64,000 bases of DNA. It comes from a virus. The position numbers and the translations under genes were made by a program. The notes under the pieces are model-generated. The model searched no databases, had not been told where the DNA came from, and saw only the letters and a list, made by a program, of their open reading frames with translations. Positions within the stretch are counted from its first letter, which is position 1; every line of letters begins with the position of its first letter. The DNA lies in IMG/VR virus record IMGVR_UViG_3300028800_000071, positions 16,796 through 80,795 of that record; one strand, 5' to 3'. This document shows, piece by piece, positions 54,286 to 61,181 of the stretch.

Positions 54286-54947
54286 TGCTGCTTATGACCC
54301 TGATCGGGTGGAGTCTCGCGGCCTACTTCGCAATGGCGGTGTGGGCCGCGGCTCTACGGTACGTCAAAATCAAAGAGCGCGTCGAGCGGGCATTGCAGAT
54401 CGCGCGAGCGCATACCGACTGCGGCGGCATTGATCGCAACTGCTGGTGCAGTCGAATCATGACGGCGCTAACGATGGAGAAAGCCGAATGAAACGATTCA
54501 TCGACTATTGGAGCTACGACGATAATTTCGGGCATCACTTTGCGTGGGGCGCGTTAGCGTTGGTGATCTTCGTCGTAGCGGCGATCATCGGCGTGATCTT
54601 TATGGTCGCGACGGCGTTCGCTTCGACGCCGGCCGCTACGCCGACGCCGTGCGGCGGGTACGATTGTCGCGGGACGGCAACCCCGCAGCCTGGCCAGACG
54701 GCAGCGCCATATACGCACGAATGCAATCTCGGGTGGGACGAACCGTGCTTCCCGCTGCCGAGCCCGACGCCATGAACGACGAACAGGGCTTTCGTACCGG
54801 CGCCTGGCTGTGCTTCTTGGCGCTCGCGATCGTTTTCGGGTCCGTCGCCGGCGCCATGATTTCCCTGCCGCCGTTCGATCTCGCTGCGGTCGGCTATATG
54901 CTCGGGATCGCAGGCGTATCGGCATTGCTGGCGATCGCGGTGAGGCC

Positions 54948-55526
54948 ATGACGGCCGAAGCCTTTACGGAGCAGCAGATGGGCGGCGAACGCGAACCGTT
55001 CCTGTCGATCTTTATCCCCGGCGAACCGTACCCGAAAGGGTCGCTCACGCCCATTACGCAGGGCACGCGTCTCGTCTACGACAAGCGCTTGAAACGTATG
55101 GGCAAGAAGCCGATCATCCGAATGCTGCCGGCGCACGATAAGTTGCGTAAGGACGGGACGCGCGGCGATGCGCGCAAGCGAGCGGAGATATGGACGCTTC
55201 ACGTCACGACGGCCTTCAACGTCTGGCAACTGACGCATAAGCGCGTGCCGGGCGACGACGAGGCGATCCGCGCGGAGCTCGTATTCGTTTTGCCGCGCCC
55301 GCCATCGCGCAAGAAGGCGAAGTATCCGAACCGCAAACCTGATCTCGATAAGCTCGCGCGTTGCGTCTATGATTGCGCCGTGCGGGCGAAGGTGCTCGGT
55401 GAGGATTCGCGCATCGTCAAGCAGCAGCATGAGAAGATCTTCCCGATCGAGCTCGTATATCCGCAGTACAATCCCGATACGGCCTTCCTGCCGACCGGCG
55501 TTCACGTCAAGTTGTGGGTTCTGTGA
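54948..55526 (+). CDS. rusA: RusA-like Holliday junction resolvase
   Basis: IPGEPYPKGS...FVLPRP...KPDLDKLARCVYD...EDSRIV. Confidence 0.85.
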   Translation: MTAEAFTEQQMGGEREPFLSIFIPGEPYPKGSLTPITQGTRLVYDKRLKRMGKKPIIRMLPAHDKLRKDGTRGDARKRAEIWTLHVTTAFNVWQLTHKRVPGDDEAIRAELVFVLPRPPSRKKAKYPNRKPDLDKLARCVYDCAVRAKVLGEDSRIVKQQHEKIFPIELVYPQYNPDTAFLPTGVHVKLWVL

Positions 55527-55797
55527 ACGAGGTCCGCTTCGTGCAATCGTTTGATCGGCGCGCGATCCCGTTGACGCACGTCTACGCTCGCGATCAGCTG
55601 CTAACATTCTATACGCGCACCCCGTTCGGAGGCACGACGCATCGGCATGAGCCGCGCCCGCGTACTATCTGTGGGCAGGTCATCGTGAAGCCGCGCGATC
55701 TGGCGTATCCGATCGGCACCATGTGCGAGCGGTGCGAATCGCTGCTCGACGACGGCAAAGTCCCGTCGGGGCCGATCGAAGTCGCGGAGTGGTTCGG

Positions 55798-56265
55798 GTG
55801 ATAAAACTCGTGATCGTGCCGGTGCCATTCGACGAAGCCTGCGCCTTCGTGCGTAAGCATCATCGGCATCATCGCTCGCCGCCGGGCGCAAAGTTTTCGA
55901 TCGGCGTGGCGCTCAATATCGACAACCGGCAACTTGAATCGATGATCGTCGGGGTGGCAATGGTCGGGCGTCCGGTCGCGCGCTCCTACGACGACGGGTG
56001 GACGCTGGAGATCATTCGGTGCGCCACGGACGGCACCAAGAATGCGTGCTCGGCCCTCTATCGCGCAGCTGCGCGAGCGGCGTTCGCGATGGGTTATCGC
56101 AAGGTCATCACGTACACGCGCACGGACGAAGGCGGCGCATCGTTGCGGGGATCTGGATTCAAATGCGTCGCGCAACGGCCGGCGCGATCTTGGGATACGC
56201 CAAGCCGGCCGCGCGTCGATAAGAGCGAGCCGCACGAACGGCTACTGTGGGAGGTTGTCGCGTGA
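55798..56265 (+). CDS. XF1762-family, Mom-like GNAT-fold DNA modification protein
   Basis: FVRKHHRHH...VGVAMVGRPVAR...LEIIRCATDG...NACSALY...YRKVITYT...GASLRGSGF. Confidence 0.8.
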   Translation: MIKLVIVPVPFDEACAFVRKHHRHHRSPPGAKFSIGVALNIDNRQLESMIVGVAMVGRPVARSYDDGWTLEIIRCATDGTKNACSALYRAAARAAFAMGYRKVITYTRTDEGGASLRGSGFKCVAQRPARSWDTPSRPRVDKSEPHERLLWEVVA

Positions 56266-56624
56266 GCGATCTGATCGCTCGGCTAAAGAACGAGCGCGCC
56301 GTGCTCGACGATCGCATCCGTGCGCTCGAAGCCGGTCAACCCGAGCCGCGGCGCCCGCACGATTGGCGCGGCTACGAGCTCGAAGGCCTGATCTGCGCCA
56401 ACTGCTCTGCGCTCTTGCGCGGTATGGTTGATATGAGCCAGGGATGGCCGGGTTACTGCGACGAGTGGGAAGGGCCGCGCCTCTCCGGTTACTTGGACAA
56501 TCTGCACCAGGCGAAGTACGAGCTCCACGATATCAAAGAGCGCATCGAAGGACTTGAGATTCGCGCGCCGATGCAAGAATGGCGGCGGCGCCTGCATTAC
56601 GTTCGAACCGGAGAGTGGACGTGA
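56262..56624 (+). CDS. Hypothetical protein
   Basis: Coupled between its neighbours. Confidence 0.55.
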   Translation: MSDLIARLKNERAVLDDRIRALEAGQPEPRRPHDWRGYELEGLICANCSALLRGMVDMSQGWPGYCDEWEGPRLSGYLDNLHQAKYELHDIKERIEGLEIRAPMQEWRRRLHYVRTGEWT

Positions 56625-58108
56625 GATACGCCACGGTGTGCAGCGGCATCGGTGCGCCCGAGGTCGCGTTCGGCCAACTCGGTTGGACGTGCGCCTTCGC
56701 ATCGGAGATCGATCGCTTCGCGCGCGCCGTCTATACGCACCATTACCCCGACACGCCGTTGTACGGCGACTTCACCAAGATTACGGAGGAAGAACTTGGA
56801 CGAGCAGGATCAGTTGACGTTCTCATTGCCGGAACTCCATGCCAGGACTTCTCTGTCGCGGGACTTCGAGCGGGGCTTGCTGGAGATCGCGGTAACCTCA
56901 CCATCGAGTTTCTGCGTCTCGTTGAACGACTTGAGCCCCGCTGGCTGGTTTACGAGAACGTGCCCGGACTATTGTCGATTGACGGAGGACGGGCGTTTGG
57001 AATCTTTATCGGGAGCTTGGGGCAACTCGGGTATGGGACCGCTTACCGGATTCTTGACGCTCGACACTTCGGAGTCCCACAACGACGCCGTAGAGTGTTC
57101 CTTGTCGGACATATTGGAGGCGCATGGCAACGTGCCGCAGCGGTACTTTTTGAGCGCCAAAGCCTGTCGCGGTATTCTCAAGAGAGCCGAGAAGCGCGGG
57201 CGCACGCTGCCGCCCTTACTGCAAACAGCGTTGGAGCAGGCGTTGGCGCAGACGACAACTCCGCACAAGCCGGGCACCTCGTAGGACCGTTGCAGGGCGC
57301 ATCGGAACGCGCCGGCCATCGCATCGGTGCCGACGAAGCCGCATCCGGCCAGCTGATCGCGCACACGTTGCGCGGCGACGGCTTCGACGCAAGCGAGGAT
57401 GGCACCGGACGCGGCACGCCCATCGTCGTTGCCGGAACGATCGGTGCCGAAATGGGACGCAATCGCGGCCTTGGCAGCGAGCAAGAGATCGATTTGATCG
57501 TGATCGACCCGAATCAAGTGACGAGCGCCGGCAATCGGTCGAACCCGCAGCCCGGCGATCCGTCGCATCCGCTCCCGGCCGATAAGCCGCCGCTCATTGC
57601 GTTCTCGAATACGGCGGGTGATACGGCGCTTGGCGCCGGCGACGACGCGCCGCCGATCACGGCACGTAAGGGAGATCCCGGCATGATCGCCTTCTCGTCG
57701 AAAGATAACGGGCGCGATGCCGTCGCTGATCTCGCGCCAACGCTTCGCCGCATGGGGCACGACGCCGCCGATCAGAACGGTGGCGGGCAGCTGGCGGTCG
57801 CGTTTCAATGCCACGGCACGAACGTCGGGGAAATGGGCGCCGTGCGATCGGGCAACGGCGGCGTAACGGGCGGCGTGCCGTTCGTCGAGCTCGGCGCCCT
57901 TGCGGGCGTACGACGCCTCACGCCGGTCGAATGCGAGCGCCTCATGAGCTTCCCCGACGGGTACACGGACGTGATCTATCGCAAGAAGCCGGCGGCCGAC
58001 GGCAACCGGCATCGCGCGCTCGGCAACAGCATGGTCGTGAACGTGGTTTCCTGGATTGGGAAACGCATCGAGCTCGTCGAAAGGCTGGCTCATGGCGAGG
58101 CTTCATAA
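56621..58108 (+). CDS. DNA (cytosine-5) methyltransferase, large subunit
   Basis: Motif I CSGIG, IV GTPCQDFS, VI ENVPG, VIII GVPQRRRRVF, C-terminal RRLTPVECERL and ALGNSM. Confidence 0.95.
   Translation: MRYATVCSGIGAPEVAFGQLGWTCAFASEIDRFARAVYTHHYPDTPLYGDFTKITEEELGRAGSVDVLIAGTPCQDFSVAGLRAGLAGDRGNLTIEFLRLVERLEPRWLVYENVPGLLSIDGGRAFGIFIGSLGQLGYGTAYRILDARHFGVPQRRRRVFLVGHIGGAWQRAAAVLFERQSLSRYSQESREARAHAAALTANSVGAGVGADDNSAQAGHLVGPLQGASERAGHRIGADEAASGQLIAHTLRGDGFDASEDGTGRGTPIVVAGTIGAEMGRNRGLGSEQEIDLIVIDPNQVTSAGNRSNPQPGDPSHPLPADKPPLIAFSNTAGDTALGAGDDAPPITARKGDPGMIAFSSKDNGRDAVADLAPTLRRMGHDAADQNGGGQLAVAFQCHGTNVGEMGAVRSGNGGVTGGVPFVELGALAGVRRLTPVECERLMSFPDGYTDVIYRKKPAADGNRHRALGNSMVVNVVSWIGKRIELVERLAHGEAS
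56796..57284 (+). CDS. Nested alternative-frame ORF, M.EcoHK31I beta-subunit-like
   Basis: GGAGGA RBS before TTG at 56796; CSLSDILE...VPQRYFLSAKACRGILKRAEKRG motif. Confidence 0.7.
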   Translation: MDEQDQLTFSLPELHARTSLSRDFERGLLEIAVTSPSSFCVSLNDLSPAGWFTRTCPDYCRLTEDGRLESLSGAWGNSGMGPLTGFLTLDTSESHNDAVECSLSDILEAHGNVPQRYFLSAKACRGILKRAEKRGRTLPPLLQTALEQALAQTTTPHKPGTS

Positions 58109-58309
58109 CTTTGAAGGCTGGACGACAAGTGAGGCGCTCACGATCGCGCAAGCGCACGTGCTCGATATGATGCCCGACGGTGCGCACGGCGAGATCACCG
58201 AAGTTTCGATCTGCCGCGATTGCGAAACGATGCACGTCGAAGCGAACGTCACGCTCATGGGCCGGCCGCGCTTCCTGATCGTCAACCTGTCGGCGGGAGA
58301 TATCGAGCT

Positions 58310-58594
58310 ATGAACGACGACGAGAAGATCATCGGGCATCTGTACGAAAAGGCCGTACAGAACATGAGCGAGGCGATCGCCAAGAACGAGGACGAGCTCA
58401 TGAAACGGATCATTGCCATGTACGGGTACGATCCCGACCCGTCGCCGACGGCGATCTGGCGCAAGCATATCCGTCTTGAGCATCGGCACGTCGGCTTGAA
58501 GATCATCTTCGTTGACGGCACGCCCGTCTGCCGCATCGAAACCGAACCGAGCGAAGATAGCAGATCCTGGATCGTCCGTGTGGTGCTCTGTTGA
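58310..58594 (+). CDS. Hypothetical protein
   Basis: Coupled ORF whose stop abuts the repeat array. Confidence 0.55.
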   Translation: MNDDEKIIGHLYEKAVQNMSEAIAKNEDELMKRIIAMYGYDPDPSPTAIWRKHIRLEHRHVGLKIIFVDGTPVCRIETEPSEDSRSWIVRVVLC

Positions 58595-58596
58595 AA

Positions 58597-59660
58597 TCGG
58601 TAGCCAGAAAGGAAGCGAGAATCATAACCATAGAGCCTAGCCGTTCCCACGGCGGGAACCATAGCAAATGCGCGAGCCACGATAGCCGCGAGAACCATAT
58701 TTCGCGCGCGAGCCAGCGGAGAATAGAGAACCATAGCCTTTGCGCGAGCCACGCTGTTTGTGGGAACCAAAATATAAGTGCGAGACAATAAAATGGCGCG
58801 AACCATTACTCATGATCGAGCCATACACGAAGCGCAAACCAACGCGATGACGCGAGCCACACCACGTGCGAGAACCTAGTACCACGAGCGAGTCAAAGTA
58901 ATCGCTAGAACCAATCGGCATGAACGAGCCAACGCAGGGTGAGAGAACCAACATAAGAGAGCGATCCACACCTGGACGCCTTGAAACAATACACTTGCGA
59001 GAGTCATTTGCTGGCGCGAACCATGGAAAAAGAACGAGACACACTTGTAGAGTGAACCAATGAAGAAGATCGAGACACACAGGTCGTGCGAGAACCAACA
59101 GCAAGGATCGAACCAATGAAAGGGAGAGAACCTATCGCGAGGCGAGCGAGCCTGAAGGCAGAGAGAATCATAGCACCGGCGCGAGCCACGCCCCATCGGC
59201 GAGAACCATATTATGCGCGCGAGCCATATCTAGAGTGAGAACCATCTTCGTAGCGCGAGCCAACGTGAAGTGAGAGAACCAAGGAGGGAAAGCGAGCCGA
59301 CCTGTGTGCGGGAACCAATAAATAAGAGCGAGCCATTCAGGACGATCGAAACAATGATCTTGTGCGAGCCTGTTTGACCTGCGCGAACCATAGAGAGTGT
59401 GCGAGCCTTGGCTCTGGAGAGAACCATAGTAGAGGTGCGAGCCAGGACCCAAGCGCGAACCGTACGATCAGAACGAGCCAATATGTTCGGCGTGAACCAA
59501 TTCTAATGCGCGAGCCATCAAGAAAGAGCGAACCATTCGAAGCAGCGCGAGACAAAAGCTCCGTGAGAATCAGACCGCCCGATCGAGCCAATAGCTCCGC
59601 GCGAACCATCTGACACGGCGCGATCCATAACGAACGAGCGAACCATAATCCTAGCGAACT
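58597..59660 (+). ncRNA. TIGR-like tandem interspaced guide-RNA array (~29 units of ~36 nt)
   Basis: 58 short repeats counted by hand, alternating GNGCGAGCCA and GNGNGAACCA, separated by variable 7-10-nt (mostly 8-nt) spacers. Period 18/36 nt; directly upstream of a Nop-domain gene. Confidence 0.88.
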
Positions 59661-59696
59661 CTTTTCAACACAACACAGATTGAAAGGGAATCCAAA

Positions 59697-60545
59697 ATGA
59701 TCCAAAACGAAGAAGGCCTTTTGAACTCCGACGCCCTGATCGAAAAGCTCGGGCGCGATCTCAAGAGAGCCGCAGCAGGCTTCACACGTAACGAAGCCCG
59801 CTTTATCGTCGAACTGCATTACGATATGCAATCCTTCCGCATCGAAAGCCAAGGCCGCGTCCGAGCTCTCGGTGAAGCCGGCGCCCCGATCGAAACGCTG
59901 CAATACTTCCTGCGGCAAATGGAACTGATCGAAGTCGCCTCCGCAGCGGTGCTCGATTCCTACAGCGCCGCCAATCCGCTCGGGCGATGGGCGCGCGAGA
60001 TCCTCGGCATCGGACCGAAGTTCGCCGCCGGCCTGCTTGCGCATATCGACATTCCCAACGCCAAGACGGCCGGGCAAATCTGGGCCTTCGCCGGCCTCGA
60101 TCCGACGCGCGAGTGGAAGAAGGGCGAGAAGCGTCCATGGAACGCGCGCCTCAAAAAACTCTGCTGGCTGATCGGCGAATCGTTCGTCAAAGTGAGCGGC
60201 AACGAGAACGCCTTCTATGGCCAACTCTATAAGCAGCGCAAGGCGTACGAGACGGCTAAGAACGAGGCCGGCGACTACGCCGAGCTCGCGGCGTCGATCT
60301 TGGAGAAGAAGAACTACAGCGCCGATACGACGGCGAAAGCCGAGTACCAAAAGGGACGGCTACCAAAGGCGCATATCCACGCTCGCGCCAAGCGCTATGC
60401 CGTCAAACTGTTCCTGGCGCATTACTTCGAGGTCGGCTGTAAGCTCGCCGGCCGCACGCCGCCGATACCCTATCCGGTCGCGCACCAAAACCACGCGCAT
60501 TACATTGCGCCGCCCGGCATCGATCACGTGGAGGCCGTCGCATGA
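59697..60545 (+). CDS. Nop/IS110-C-terminal-like RNA-binding protein without nuclease (TasA-like)
   Basis: Coiled coil (YDMQSFRIESQGRVRAL), then ILGIGPKFAAGLLAHI, QIWAFAGLDP, WNARLKKLCW-IGESFVK, FYGQLYKQRKAYE, HIHARAKRYAVKLFL. No DEDD/RuvC or HNH domain; GAAAGGGA RBS. Confidence 0.85.
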   Translation: MIQNEEGLLNSDALIEKLGRDLKRAAAGFTRNEARFIVELHYDMQSFRIESQGRVRALGEAGAPIETLQYFLRQMELIEVASAAVLDSYSAANPLGRWAREILGIGPKFAAGLLAHIDIPNAKTAGQIWAFAGLDPTREWKKGEKRPWNARLKKLCWLIGESFVKVSGNENAFYGQLYKQRKAYETAKNEAGDYAELAASILEKKNYSADTTAKAEYQKGRLPKAHIHARAKRYAVKLFLAHYFEVGCKLAGRTPPIPYPVAHQNHAHYIAPPGIDHVEAVA

Positions 60546-60902
60546 AAAAGGAACTCGCAACCGGCTTCTTCATGATCGCGATGGCGGCGTCGATCGCCGG
60601 GTTGGCCGTGATCGCAACGATCGCCATTACGGCGGGAGGGCATCGCTAATGCTGACCTTCACGCTGCCAGACGGCACGAAGCGTATCTTCCCCGAGAGCA
60701 ACGACGACGTGCATACGAAAGTGATCGTCCTGTTCTACAACGCCGACGGCTGGAACTTTCATTGGGAAGATACGACCGCCACACTAGCGCGCGGCGTCGG
60801 GTACGATTCGGCCTGCCGTTTTAACGGCGGCAAAGTCAACGGCAATCAGATCGAGTTCGATACGCCGGAAGGCAAATACACGCTGACCTGGGGAGATAAA
60901 TA

Positions 60903-61181
60903 ATGGCCGTACAGTTAGACGTCGAGCGCCTCATGAGCGTCGTCGATGCTATCCGCGAGCACAACGCCATGGATTGGGCCGAAGTTGGCAAGGCGATCGA
61001 CGTATCGCCGTCAACGCTCGCGCGCATGGAGAAAGGCGAGCAGCCGAACGTCACGACGCTCTGCCGGCTGCTGCGTTGGTCGAATATCGACGTGCGCAAA
61101 TATATCTCCGACGTTACGCAAGCCGAGCTCGTACCAACGCCGGCGATGGCGGAAGGCGGCGACGCAAATGGCGGCGACTGA
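60903..61181 (+). CDS. XRE-family HTH regulator
   Basis: WAEVGKAIDVSPSTLARMEKGEQPNVTTLCRLLRW. Confidence 0.85.
   Translation: MAVQLDVERLMSVVDAIREHNAMDWAEVGKAIDVSPSTLARMEKGEQPNVTTLCRLLRWSNIDVRKYISDVTQAELVPTPAMAEGGDANGGD

What the first reader, a model, noticed from the sequence alone, without database searches (positions are those of the whole stretch)
58597..60545. RNA-guided system: dual-repeat guide array plus a nuclease-less Nop-domain protein (TIGR-Tas, TasA type)
Seen: a 1.05-kb non-coding stretch parses into 58 ten-nt repeats alternating ...GAGCCA and ...GAACCA, each followed by a different ~8-nt spacer. Example: gcgggaacca-TAGCAAAT-gcgcgagcca-CGATAGCC-gcgagaacca-TATTTCGC-gcgcgagcca-GCGGAGAA. 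That gives ~29 units of ~36 nt, each with two spacers. About 36 nt after the array comes a 282-aa protein with the GIG/AGLDP/RAKR motifs of the domain shared by IS110 transposases and Nop56/58. Established: TIGR-Tas systems consist of ~36-nt dual-repeat, dual-spacer units processed into guide RNAs that load Nop-domain Tas proteins and pair with both strands of a DNA target; TasA has no nuclease. Inference: this phage encodes about 29 programmable DNA-binding guides, probably for silencing or interfering with competing elements or host loci rather than cutting. The family is described, but this array's repeat consensus and its targets may be new.
Basis: partly seen in the sequence, partly recalled or inferred. 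Interest (0 to 1): 0.96.

Follow-up and report, generated by a model that had tools for sequence, protein, structure and literature searches.

The report
Phage TIGR guide array with TasA
An 81-kb soil (rhizosphere) phage carries a typical TIGR-TasA system, with about 29 two-part guide RNAs and a nuclease-free protein that binds them; this kind of system was published in 2025-26, so this is a new member rather than a new system, and its targets are still unknown.

Summary
At 58597-59659 there are 58 ten-nt repeats with an 18-nt period. GNGCGAGCCA alternates with GNGNGAACCA, and spacers are mostly 8 nt, giving about 29 units of 36 nt. The 282-aa gene 37 nt downstream (59697-60545) matches solved TasR and TasH by sequence and by predicted fold. 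It is all-helical with no nuclease domain, so it is TasA. It keeps the Tyr/His pair (Y259/H266) that SpTasH uses to cut its own guide precursor.

With this window's repeat profile, 138 of 161 related loci show a same-strand array next to the homolog and none on the opposite strand. The repeat consensus is the commonest one in the clade, so it is not new. This scan has already noted TIGR-Tas loci in at least 47 other genomes.

No guide matches the phage's own 80.8-kb genome at up to 2 mismatches, and six guides scanned against IMG/VR gave background-level hits, so targets remain unknown.

In passing: in a relative (a prophage of Acidobacteriaceae KBS 96), one guide matches perfectly, and a second at 14 of 16, within 0.9 kb of each other. 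Both sites lie in a 10-kb satellite-like island elsewhere in that genome. This favours an anti-mobile-element role.

Verdict: new member of a known kind, moderate interest.

The parts
58597..59659 (+). Dual-repeat TIGR array: 58 ten-nt repeats (29 edge-type GNGCGAGCCA, 29 loop-type GNGNGAACCA) with 58 spacers, then a 3'-truncated edge repeat (59654-59659). The first three repeats (58597-58651) are degenerate.
   Evidence: Edge/loop assignment comes from position 4:7 pairing (C4 in 27/29, G7 in 25/29 in one class; N4/A7 in the other) and from covariation in relatives.
59683..59689 (+). Shine-Dalgarno-like AAAGGGA, 7 nt before the tasA start codon. No terminator-like or promoter-like site lies between the array and the gene.
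59697..60545 (+). tasA: 282-aa nuclease-free Tas protein. N-terminal coiled-coil helices cover about residues 5-92, the Nop-type RNA-binding domain about 93-250, and the C-terminal loop holds Y259/H266.
60471..60494 (+). Codons for Y259 (60471-60473) to H266 (60492-60494). This pair aligns without gaps to Y289/H296 of SpTasH, the residues that cut the guide precursor.
   Evidence: for the alignment; PMC13421893 for the SpTasH residues; conservation
56579..58108 (+). Context only: C-5 cytosine DNA methyltransferase upstream on the same strand. A Mom-like gene (55723-56265) and a RusA-like gene (54810-55526) lie further up.
60542..61181 (+). Context only: three small same-strand ORFs joined by overlapping stop/start codons. 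They are a 35-aa hydrophobic ORF (60542-60649, ATGA overlap with tasA), an 84-aa ORF (60649-60903) and an HTH_3 protein (60903-61181). None is conserved next to tasA in relatives.

Best explanation
This is a dual-repeat TIGR array with its TasA effector, sitting in the rightward early/middle operon of an uncultured 80.8-kb rhizosphere phage. Shown here: the array architecture; the homology and fold of the protein; the absence of a nuclease domain; the conserved Tyr/His processing pair; the same-strand adjacency of array and gene across the clade; and the absence of targets in the phage's own genome. Inferred from published work on relatives: (1) The array is transcribed with tasA as one precursor. 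(2) A TasA dimer binds each unit through the CCA (box C) ends of the edge and loop repeats. (3) TasA cuts inside the edge repeats with Y259/H266, releasing roughly 36-nt tigRNAs of the form edge 3' half, 8-nt spacer A, loop repeat, 8-nt spacer B, edge 5' half. (4) The complex then opens a 16-bp DNA site, with each spacer pairing to a different strand. (5) Having no nuclease, it stays bound and blocks transcription or replication. The most likely targets are other mobile elements (rival phages or satellites) in the host, and less likely host genes.
For: Array. Protein against solved structures by sequence: TasR 9mty E 3.9e-16, TasH 21kl E 9.5e-13, IS621 only 0.74. AlphaFold2 model: pLDDT 90.3, all helices. 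The ten best Foldseek PDB hits are all TasH/TasR complexes (E about 1e-7), followed by IS110-family recombinases. Family scans: Pfam PF02371 over residues 100-139 only, and phrog_4285 at 2.8e-50. Y259/H266 align without gaps to SpTasH Y289/H296 and are conserved in 36 homologs. Relatives: 138 of 161 loci have a same-strand array detected with this window's repeat profile, 0 on the opposite strand. One repeat class carries a complementary position 4:7 in 81 of 102 arrays, with CG, UA and AU pair types, as published for edge repeats. TasA and the array are the only conserved module. Published function: TasA binds 36-nt RNAs, and MbTasA represses transcription in a guide-dependent way. Own-genome search: no hit at up to 2 mismatches in either two-strand register, against 0.55-0.85 expected by chance. 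The array is identical in contigs from four other rhizosphere samples apart from one base.
Against: There is no RNA evidence for this locus: no RNA run was listed, so expression and 36-nt processing are untested. Box D is GNG (GAG in relatives), not the UG of TasR. 19 of 58 repeats deviate by one base from CCA, and 13 spacers are not 8 nt, so some units may be dead. No sigma-70-like promoter or intrinsic terminator was found at the locus, so the transcription unit is inferred from gene order only. No target was found for any guide.
Confidence: 0.85

Rival explanations
1. Same system, but the guides are aimed at host chromosomal genes. The phage would silence host functions during infection rather than rival mobile elements.
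For: Spacer GC tracks flank GC across 116 arrays (r 0.64), as expected if targets share the host's composition. Guide 58814 (target ACGCGATGTTCGTGTA) matches exactly the YTNIAF motif of class Ib ribonucleotide reductase nrdF in 16 related IMG/VR contigs. In KBS 96, a third guide has a 1-mismatch site on the start codon of a Cys/Met PLP enzyme gene.
Against: The nrdF cluster is one coincidence multiplied by a conserved family, and no second guide hits those contigs. The KBS 96 1-mismatch hit is at the chance level (about 1.5 expected over ten patterns). The only statistically strong natural match lies in a mobile island, not in a host gene.
Confidence: 0.2
2. The guides regulate the phage's own genes, acting as a timing or lysogeny switch.
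For: The array sits in an early/middle operon beside an HTH regulator. Published discussion lists lifecycle regulation as one option.
Against: With the array masked, none of the 29 guides matches the complete 80,795-bp genome at up to 2 mismatches in either two-strand register. In the KBS 96 relative, the 60 kb around its tasA also holds no match at up to 1 mismatch.
Confidence: 0.04
3. The array is a decaying relic, and TasA here has lost guide-dependent function or works with only a few units.
For: Only 12 of 29 units have CCA in both repeats, 13 spacers are off-length, and the first three repeats are degenerate.
Against: tasA is intact and keeps every invariant residue of the clade, including the processing pair. 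ACA, TCA and CCG box-C variants are consensus forms in other arrays of the clade, so single-base variants may be tolerated. The array is stable across five samples.
Confidence: 0.08
4. The repeats act as DNA (iterons, a partition site or an origin), or encode a repeat protein, and the neighbouring gene is an IS110 transposase remnant.
For: The Pfam name of the only hit is 'Transposase IS116/IS110/IS902'. The 18-nt period is a multiple of three.
Against: There is no DEDD/RuvC domain, and the match to IS621 is far weaker than to Tas proteins. The repeats are strand-asymmetric and co-oriented with the gene in 138 of 138 arrays. Stops occur in all frames and 13 steps shift the frame. Across relatives the repeats are conserved while the intervening 8 nt differ, which is the opposite of a coding pattern.
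Confidence: 0.02

Closest known systems
Dual-repeat TIGR-TasA systems (FpTIGR of Flavonifractor plautii; Faure et al. 2025, Science, PMC12045711)
   Same: Solo Nop-domain protein. Adjacent array of two alternating roughly 10-nt repeats with short spacers, in 36-nt units. Both repeats end in CCA. [quoted passage not shown] Phage-borne.
   Different: Spacers are 8 nt, not 9. Box D reads GNG, not UG. The array lies upstream of the gene, which is the minority layout in this clade. At 29 units it is about twice the published mean of 16 per dual-repeat array.
SpTIGR-TasH of Salicola phage CGphi29 (PDB 9w03, 9w04, 21kl; PMC13421893)
   Same: 8-nt spacers. 33% identity over the Nop domain. It is the best structural match. 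The Tyr/His processing pair sits at the same spacing.
   Different: SpTasH has an N-terminal HNH nuclease and cuts both strands. The window protein begins directly with the coiled coil.
MbTasA and catalytically dead TasR as RNA-guided transcriptional repressors (Xu et al. 2026, bioRxiv 10.64898/2026.09.09.750476)
   Same: Nuclease-free Tas effector. This is the published mechanism I assume here.
   Different: The TasR proteins characterised there use stem-loop guides and lack the Tyr/His loop, and MbTasA comes from a Minisyncoccota bacterium rather than a phage. The window system is of the dual-repeat class.
IS110/IS621 bridge-RNA recombinases (PDB 8wt6)
   Same: Shared RNA-binding domain fold (Foldseek ranks 12-17) and the Pfam PF02371 match.
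   Different: No DEDD/RuvC recombinase domain, no single bridge RNA and no transposon ends. The sequence match is weak (E 0.74).
Phage-encoded CRISPR-Cas of vibriophage ICP1 aimed at the PLE satellite, and type IV / V-M CRISPR systems that interfere without cutting (from my own knowledge and)
   Same: A mobile element carries RNA guides against another mobile element. This is a functional analogy for the KBS 96 observation.
   Different: The proteins and guide architecture are unrelated. The analogy is inference only.

Membership tests
TIGR-Tas (Faure et al. 2025) | Tas protein: a Nop-type RNA-binding domain homologous to characterised Tas proteins | tested here: met
   phmmer against PDB: TasR 9mty 3.9e-16 and TasH 9.5e-13. 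The Foldseek top 10 are all TasH/TasR, from a model with pLDDT 90.
TIGR-Tas (Faure et al. 2025) | Array of two distinct alternating 8-12-nt repeats with 8-12-nt spacers, next to the tas gene on the same strand | tested here: met
   58 repeats of 10 nt, spacers mostly 8 nt, ending 37 nt before tasA. The same layout occurs in 138 of 161 relatives and never on the opposite strand.
TIGR-Tas (Faure et al. 2025) | Box C (CCA) at the 3' end of both repeat classes | tested here: met
   The consensus of both classes ends in CCA. 39 of 58 individual repeats match exactly and the rest differ by one base.
TIGR-Tas (Faure et al. 2025) | Box D (UG) at the 5' start of both repeats, with the G pairing to box C | tested here: inconclusive
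   The repeats start GNG. The U is absent, while G3 is conserved (48 of 58). In clade consensus sequences, position 3:8 is G:C in 30 of 50 and U:A in 4. The paper allows divergent motifs that covary between edge and loop repeats.
TIGR-Tas (Faure et al. 2025) | Edge repeat has one base pair more than the loop repeat, supported by covariation | tested here: met
   C4:G7 occurs in the GAGCCA class and N4/A7 in the GAACCA class. Exactly one class pairs at 4:7 in 81 of 102 arrays, with CG, UA and AU types.
TasA subtype | No HNH or RuvC nuclease domain | tested here: met
   282 aa, all helical. Pfam finds only PF02371 at residues 100-139. Alignments to TasH and TasR start after their nuclease domains. 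Listed homologs are 262-312 aa. A search for longer fused forms was not run.
Dual-repeat class | Tyr/His processing pair on the C-terminal loop (SpTasH Y289/H296) | tested here: met
   Y259/H266 align without gaps. H266 is invariant and Y259 is at least 90% conserved.
TIGR-Tas (Faure et al. 2025) | The array is transcribed and processed into roughly 36-nt RNAs bound by the Tas protein | not testable with these tools
   No RNA run holding this DNA was listed.
TIGR-Tas (Faure et al. 2025) | Guide-dependent binding of double-stranded DNA, with one spacer pairing to each strand | not testable with these tools
   Indirect only: a relative's guide matches a genomic site perfectly when spacer B is read on one strand and spacer A on the other.
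IS110-family transposase | N-terminal DEDD/RuvC-like recombinase domain (PF01548) | tested here: not met
   No such Pfam hit at E up to 10, and the model has no beta-sheet domain.

The most novel reading that the evidence does not exclude
The array is a phage's arsenal against parasitic or rival mobile elements. TasA-tigRNA complexes would sit on the early operon of satellites or competing prophages in the host and keep them silent without cutting. The lead comes from a relative, a prophage of Acidobacteriaceae bacterium KBS 96. There, guide 1 matches perfectly a site 25-40 nt inside the alpA-like HTH_17 gene of a 10.15-kb island integrated at tRNA-Glu. That island carries an integrase, a repressor-like HTH, a small terminase, a protease and a capsid gene. 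Guide 4 matches at 14 of 16 only 0.9 kb away. If this holds generally, it would be the first natural target class for TIGR-TasA, and it would fix the pairing register as spacer B followed by the reverse complement of spacer A.
Probability: 0.3. Interest if true: 0.75.

Novelty: new member of a known kind. Interest (0 to 1): 0.35.

Why it matters
For the window itself the value is modest. It is a clean, complete and fairly large TIGR-TasA locus in a full-length phage genome. It therefore allows a self-targeting test that most metagenomic fragments cannot support, and that test was negative. It adds nothing to the definition of the family.

The wider point is that natural targets of TIGR systems are an acknowledged open question. 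Comparing this clade with an isolate genome gave one statistically credible natural target, in a satellite-like island. That makes the 'weapon against other mobile elements' idea testable in a culturable bacterium, Acidobacteriaceae KBS 96.

Tried and rejected
1. **Self-targets.** I searched the whole phage genome with the array masked, in four spacer arrangements, at up to 2 mismatches. The two-strand registers gave nothing.

2. **Guides against the array itself or relatives' arrays.** Hits were at chance level, except the repeat-like spacer at 59409 listed under noticed in passing.

3. **Window guides against 0.95 Mb of related loci.** One 1-mismatch hit against 0.7 expected. Foreign guides against this phage gave 0 perfect hits.

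4. **Six window guides (register B+rcA) scanned exactly in IMG/VR.** They gave 12, 30, 1, 29, 7 and 5 hits. No contig was hit by two guides at a meaningful level. The nrdF cluster was judged to be one event amplified by a gene family.

5. **Shared spacers.** None are shared with 116 non-redundant arrays.

6. **Closest relatives.** The single-protein metagenome scan found nothing.

7. **Rfam.** No match at E up to 1.

8. **Promoter and terminator scan.** Nothing above shuffled expectation.

9. **Cultured phages.** There is no DNA match, and protein matches are all below 33% identity, so no host could be read off.

10. **Sequencing runs.** No RNA holder was listed.

11. **Other arrays in the genome.** None found.

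12. **Replication of the KBS 96 result in Halomonas sp. NO4.** Five guides gave no perfect match. Four 1-mismatch hits lay on four different contigs and were not followed up.

13. **Pairing register from the literature.** The paper texts I could read do not state it in words.

Full report
**What is there.** Reading 58300-60800 shows a non-coding stretch followed by a 282-aa ORF.

- A regex for GA[GA]NCN-type cores and a profile-based chain search allowing steps of 16-21 nt both give 58 repeats from 58597 to 59653.
- These are followed by a truncated repeat (GCGAAC) at 59654-59659.
- The two repeat classes alternate slot by slot. The consensus sequences are G-[C/A]-G-C-G-A-G-C-C-A and G-N-G-N-G-A-A-C-C-A.
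- 45 of 58 spacers are 8 nt, and no spacer is repeated.
- The same profile finds no other chain on either strand of the full 80,795-bp genome.
- Stops in all six frames and 13 off-period steps argue against a coding repeat.
- Rfam has no match.

**The protein.**

- Pfam gives only PF02371 over residues 100-139 (E 1e-4). PHROGs gives phrog_4285 at 2.8e-50.
- Against the sequences of all PDB chains, the best hits are the TIGR-TasR chain 9mty (3.9e-16) and SpTasH (9.5e-13). The IS621 recombinase scores only 0.74.
- An AlphaFold2 model built on 36 homologs has pLDDT 90.3, pTM 0.87, and is entirely helical.
- The ten best Foldseek hits in the PDB are all TasH or TasR complexes (E about 1e-7, TM about 0.6). 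IS110-family recombinases follow.
- No nuclease domain is present. The alignments to TasH and TasR begin after their HNH or RuvC domains, and residues 5-92 form the long helices of the coiled-coil dimerisation region. The protein is therefore TasA.

**Guide processing.** SpTasH cuts its own precursor with Y289 and H296 on a C-terminal loop (PMC13421893). This pair is reported as conserved in dual-repeat systems and absent from stem-loop systems (Xu et al. preprint). I translated the SpTasH gene from the phage record. Extending the BLAST alignment without gaps puts Y259 on Y289 and H266 on H296. This agrees with the HMMER alignment, which ends exactly at Y259/Y289. H266 is invariant and Y259 at least 90% conserved among 36 homologs. 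I therefore infer that this TasA matures its own guides.

**Which repeat is which.** Faure et al. describe both repeats as starting with box D and ending with box C (CCA). The edge repeat has one extra base pair supported by covariation, and the loop repeat is A-rich in the middle.

- In this array the GAGCCA class has C at position 4 (27 of 29) and G at position 7 (25 of 29).
- The GAACCA class has a variable position 4 and always A at position 7.
- Among 102 related arrays, exactly one class is complementary at 4:7 in 81 of them. Across the 50 distinct repeat consensus sequences, the pair types at 4:7 are CG (11), UA (7) and AU (3). Position 3:8 also shows G:C and U:A.
- So GNGCGAGCCA is the edge repeat and GNGNGAACCA is the loop repeat. 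[quoted passage not shown]
- Box D reads GNG here, not UG. The paper notes that these motifs can diverge.

**Relatives.** The protein has thousands of homologs of similar length, and the nearest is 70% identical.

- I fetched 80 viral and 80 metagenomic loci with homologs of about 50% identity.
- Scanning them with this window's own repeat profile finds a same-strand array directly next to the gene in 138 of 161 loci. None is found on the opposite strand, which serves as the control.
- Arrays run from 8 to 124 repeats, and 12 of the 138 reach 58 or more.
- The commonest consensus pair is GAGCGAGCCA with GAGAGAACCA, so the repeat consensus here is not new.
- No neighbouring gene is conserved with tasA. 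The one exception is an occasional C5 methyltransferase, in 13 of 195 loci.
- In 185,579 species genomes, only 33 carry a member of the clade. Several are soil Acidobacteria.
- Cultured phages hold only distant relatives, below 33% identity.
- The scan's own records list TIGR-Tas notes in at least 47 other genomes.

**Context and stability.** The genes upstream on the same strand are RusA-like, Mom-like and a C5 DNA methyltransferase. Downstream, three small ORFs are joined to tasA by overlapping stop/start codons, and one of them is an HTH_3 protein. No promoter-like or terminator-like site separates the array from tasA, so co-transcription is the simplest reading. It remains unproven. The DNA occurs in rhizosphere metagenomes. 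Contigs from four further samples cover the array with no indel and a single base difference, C>A at 59005. These samples may belong to one campaign.

**Targets.**

- With the array masked, none of the 29 guides matches the phage genome at up to 2 mismatches in either two-strand register. Mispaired controls give 0.55-0.85 hits.
- Nothing significant appeared in 0.95 Mb of related loci.
- Six guides scanned exactly against IMG/VR gave 1-30 hits each, and no contig was hit by two guides.
- Sixteen of the 30 hits of one guide lie in the YTNIAF motif of nrdF. I regard this as a single coincidence multiplied by a conserved family.
- Spacers are AT-shifted: 43% GC against 60.6% for the genome. The same shift occurs in 103 of 116 arrays, while spacer GC still tracks flank GC with r 0.64.

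**A relative with a genome around it.** Acidobacteriaceae bacterium KBS 96 is an isolate with a 6.69-Mb scaffold. It carries a homolog (50% identity) with a clean array of five units of the same repeat type. The locus lies inside a prophage that has exonuclease VIII, a replication initiator, a methyltransferase, a large terminase and a portal gene.

- I searched the whole genome with all five guides in both registers, ten patterns in all.
- Register rc(A)+B gave nothing at up to 1 mismatch.
- Register B+rc(A) gave three notable hits: one perfect match (guide 1, at 6,329,962), one 1-mismatch match (guide 3), and a 14-of-16 match of guide 4 only 0.9 kb from the perfect one.
- About 0.03 perfect matches are expected over ten patterns. 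The chance of a second guide landing within 1 kb at up to 2 mismatches is about 0.01. The joint probability is about 3e-4, though this is a post hoc estimate.
- The two clustered sites lie in a 10.15-kb element bounded by 44-nt direct repeats at tRNA-Glu.
- That element carries an integrase, an HTH_3 protein, a divergent HTH_17 (alpA-like) gene, a small terminase, a head protease and a capsid gene.
- The perfect site is 25-40 nt inside the HTH_17 gene.
- This looks like a phage satellite or a small defective prophage whose leftward operon would be blocked by a bound TasA complex. That reading is an inference.
- The 1-mismatch site of guide 3 lies at a housekeeping promoter and is at the chance level.
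- A repeat in Halomonas sp. NO4 gave no perfect match.
- The held literature does not link TIGR-Tas with satellites, and a September 2026 preprint still calls natural targets undetermined.

**Verdict.** The locus meets every defining feature of a dual-repeat TIGR-TasA system that sequence alone can test. Box D is a clade-wide variant. RNA processing and DNA binding remain to be shown. It is a new member of a known kind.

Noticed in passing
L170:3786-4001 (array) and L196:9052-9977 (targets); G001:C1:6329052-6329977: In Acidobacteriaceae bacterium KBS 96, a prophage TIGR-TasA array of the same repeat type has one guide with a perfect 16-nt match. A second guide has a 14/16 match 0.9 kb away. 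Both sites lie in a 10.15-kb integrase/alpA-like/TerS/protease/capsid island at tRNA-Glu, 6.2 Mb from the array. It is a candidate natural target, a satellite-like element.
   Followed up: partly
G001 whole genome, ten patterns: Only the arrangement 'spacer B followed by the reverse complement of spacer A' gave matches at up to 1 mismatch. The opposite arrangement gave none. This may fix the natural pairing register, with both spacers running from the outer edges of the target towards its centre.
   Followed up: partly
window 58597-59653 and 116 related arrays: Spacers are AT-shifted relative to their flanks: here 43% against 60.6% GC, and lower in 103 of 116 arrays, with a median of -7 points. 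The first base after the loop repeat is A or T in 28 of 29 units here, and in about two thirds of cases in relatives.
   Followed up: partly
window 58814-58849 (guide); L213, L216-L219 and others: The predicted target of this guide (ACGCGATGTTCGTGTA) occurs exactly in the YTNIAF-coding motif of class Ib ribonucleotide reductase nrdF in 16 related IMG/VR contigs, many from isolate genomes. This is probably chance amplified by a conserved gene, but it could hint at a high-GC Gram-positive host.
   Followed up: partly
window 59399-59434: Spacer A of this unit (TGGCTCTG) is the reverse complement of an edge-repeat-like end (CAGAGCCA). In the rc(A)+B register the guide would fit its own loop-repeat/spacer-B junction except for two bases. 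This resembles the 'guides aimed at guide arrays' noted elsewhere in the scan. On its own it is not significant (about 0.1-0.2 by chance).
   Followed up: partly
L002/L004/L005/L006, L016/L017/L022/L023, L063/L068, L069/L148: Related arrays share only some of their 16-nt spacer pairs (for example 16 between L004 and L006). Arrays therefore diverge by gain and loss of whole units while the repeats stay fixed.
   Followed up: no
window 60542-60649: A 35-aa hydrophobic ORF overlaps the tasA stop codon (ATGA), and it is followed by a TAATG-coupled 84-aa ORF. Neither is found next to tasA in 195 related loci.
   Followed up: partly
window 56579-58108; L198:2568-3410; 13 related loci: A C5 DNA methyltransferase lies near tasA here, in the KBS 96 prophage and in 13 of 195 related loci. 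This is a loose association of TIGR-TasA with DNA-modification genes.
   Followed up: no
window 59005: One rhizosphere sample (X5) reads A instead of the otherwise invariant C9 of a repeat. It comes from a single contig at depth about 5, so it may be an error.
   Followed up: no
Genome-contig scan (L163-L195): This TasA clade was confirmed in more than 500 viral and more than 500 metagenomic stretches, but in only 33 of 185,579 species genomes. Those 33 are spread over many phyla, with several soil Acidobacteria.
   Followed up: no
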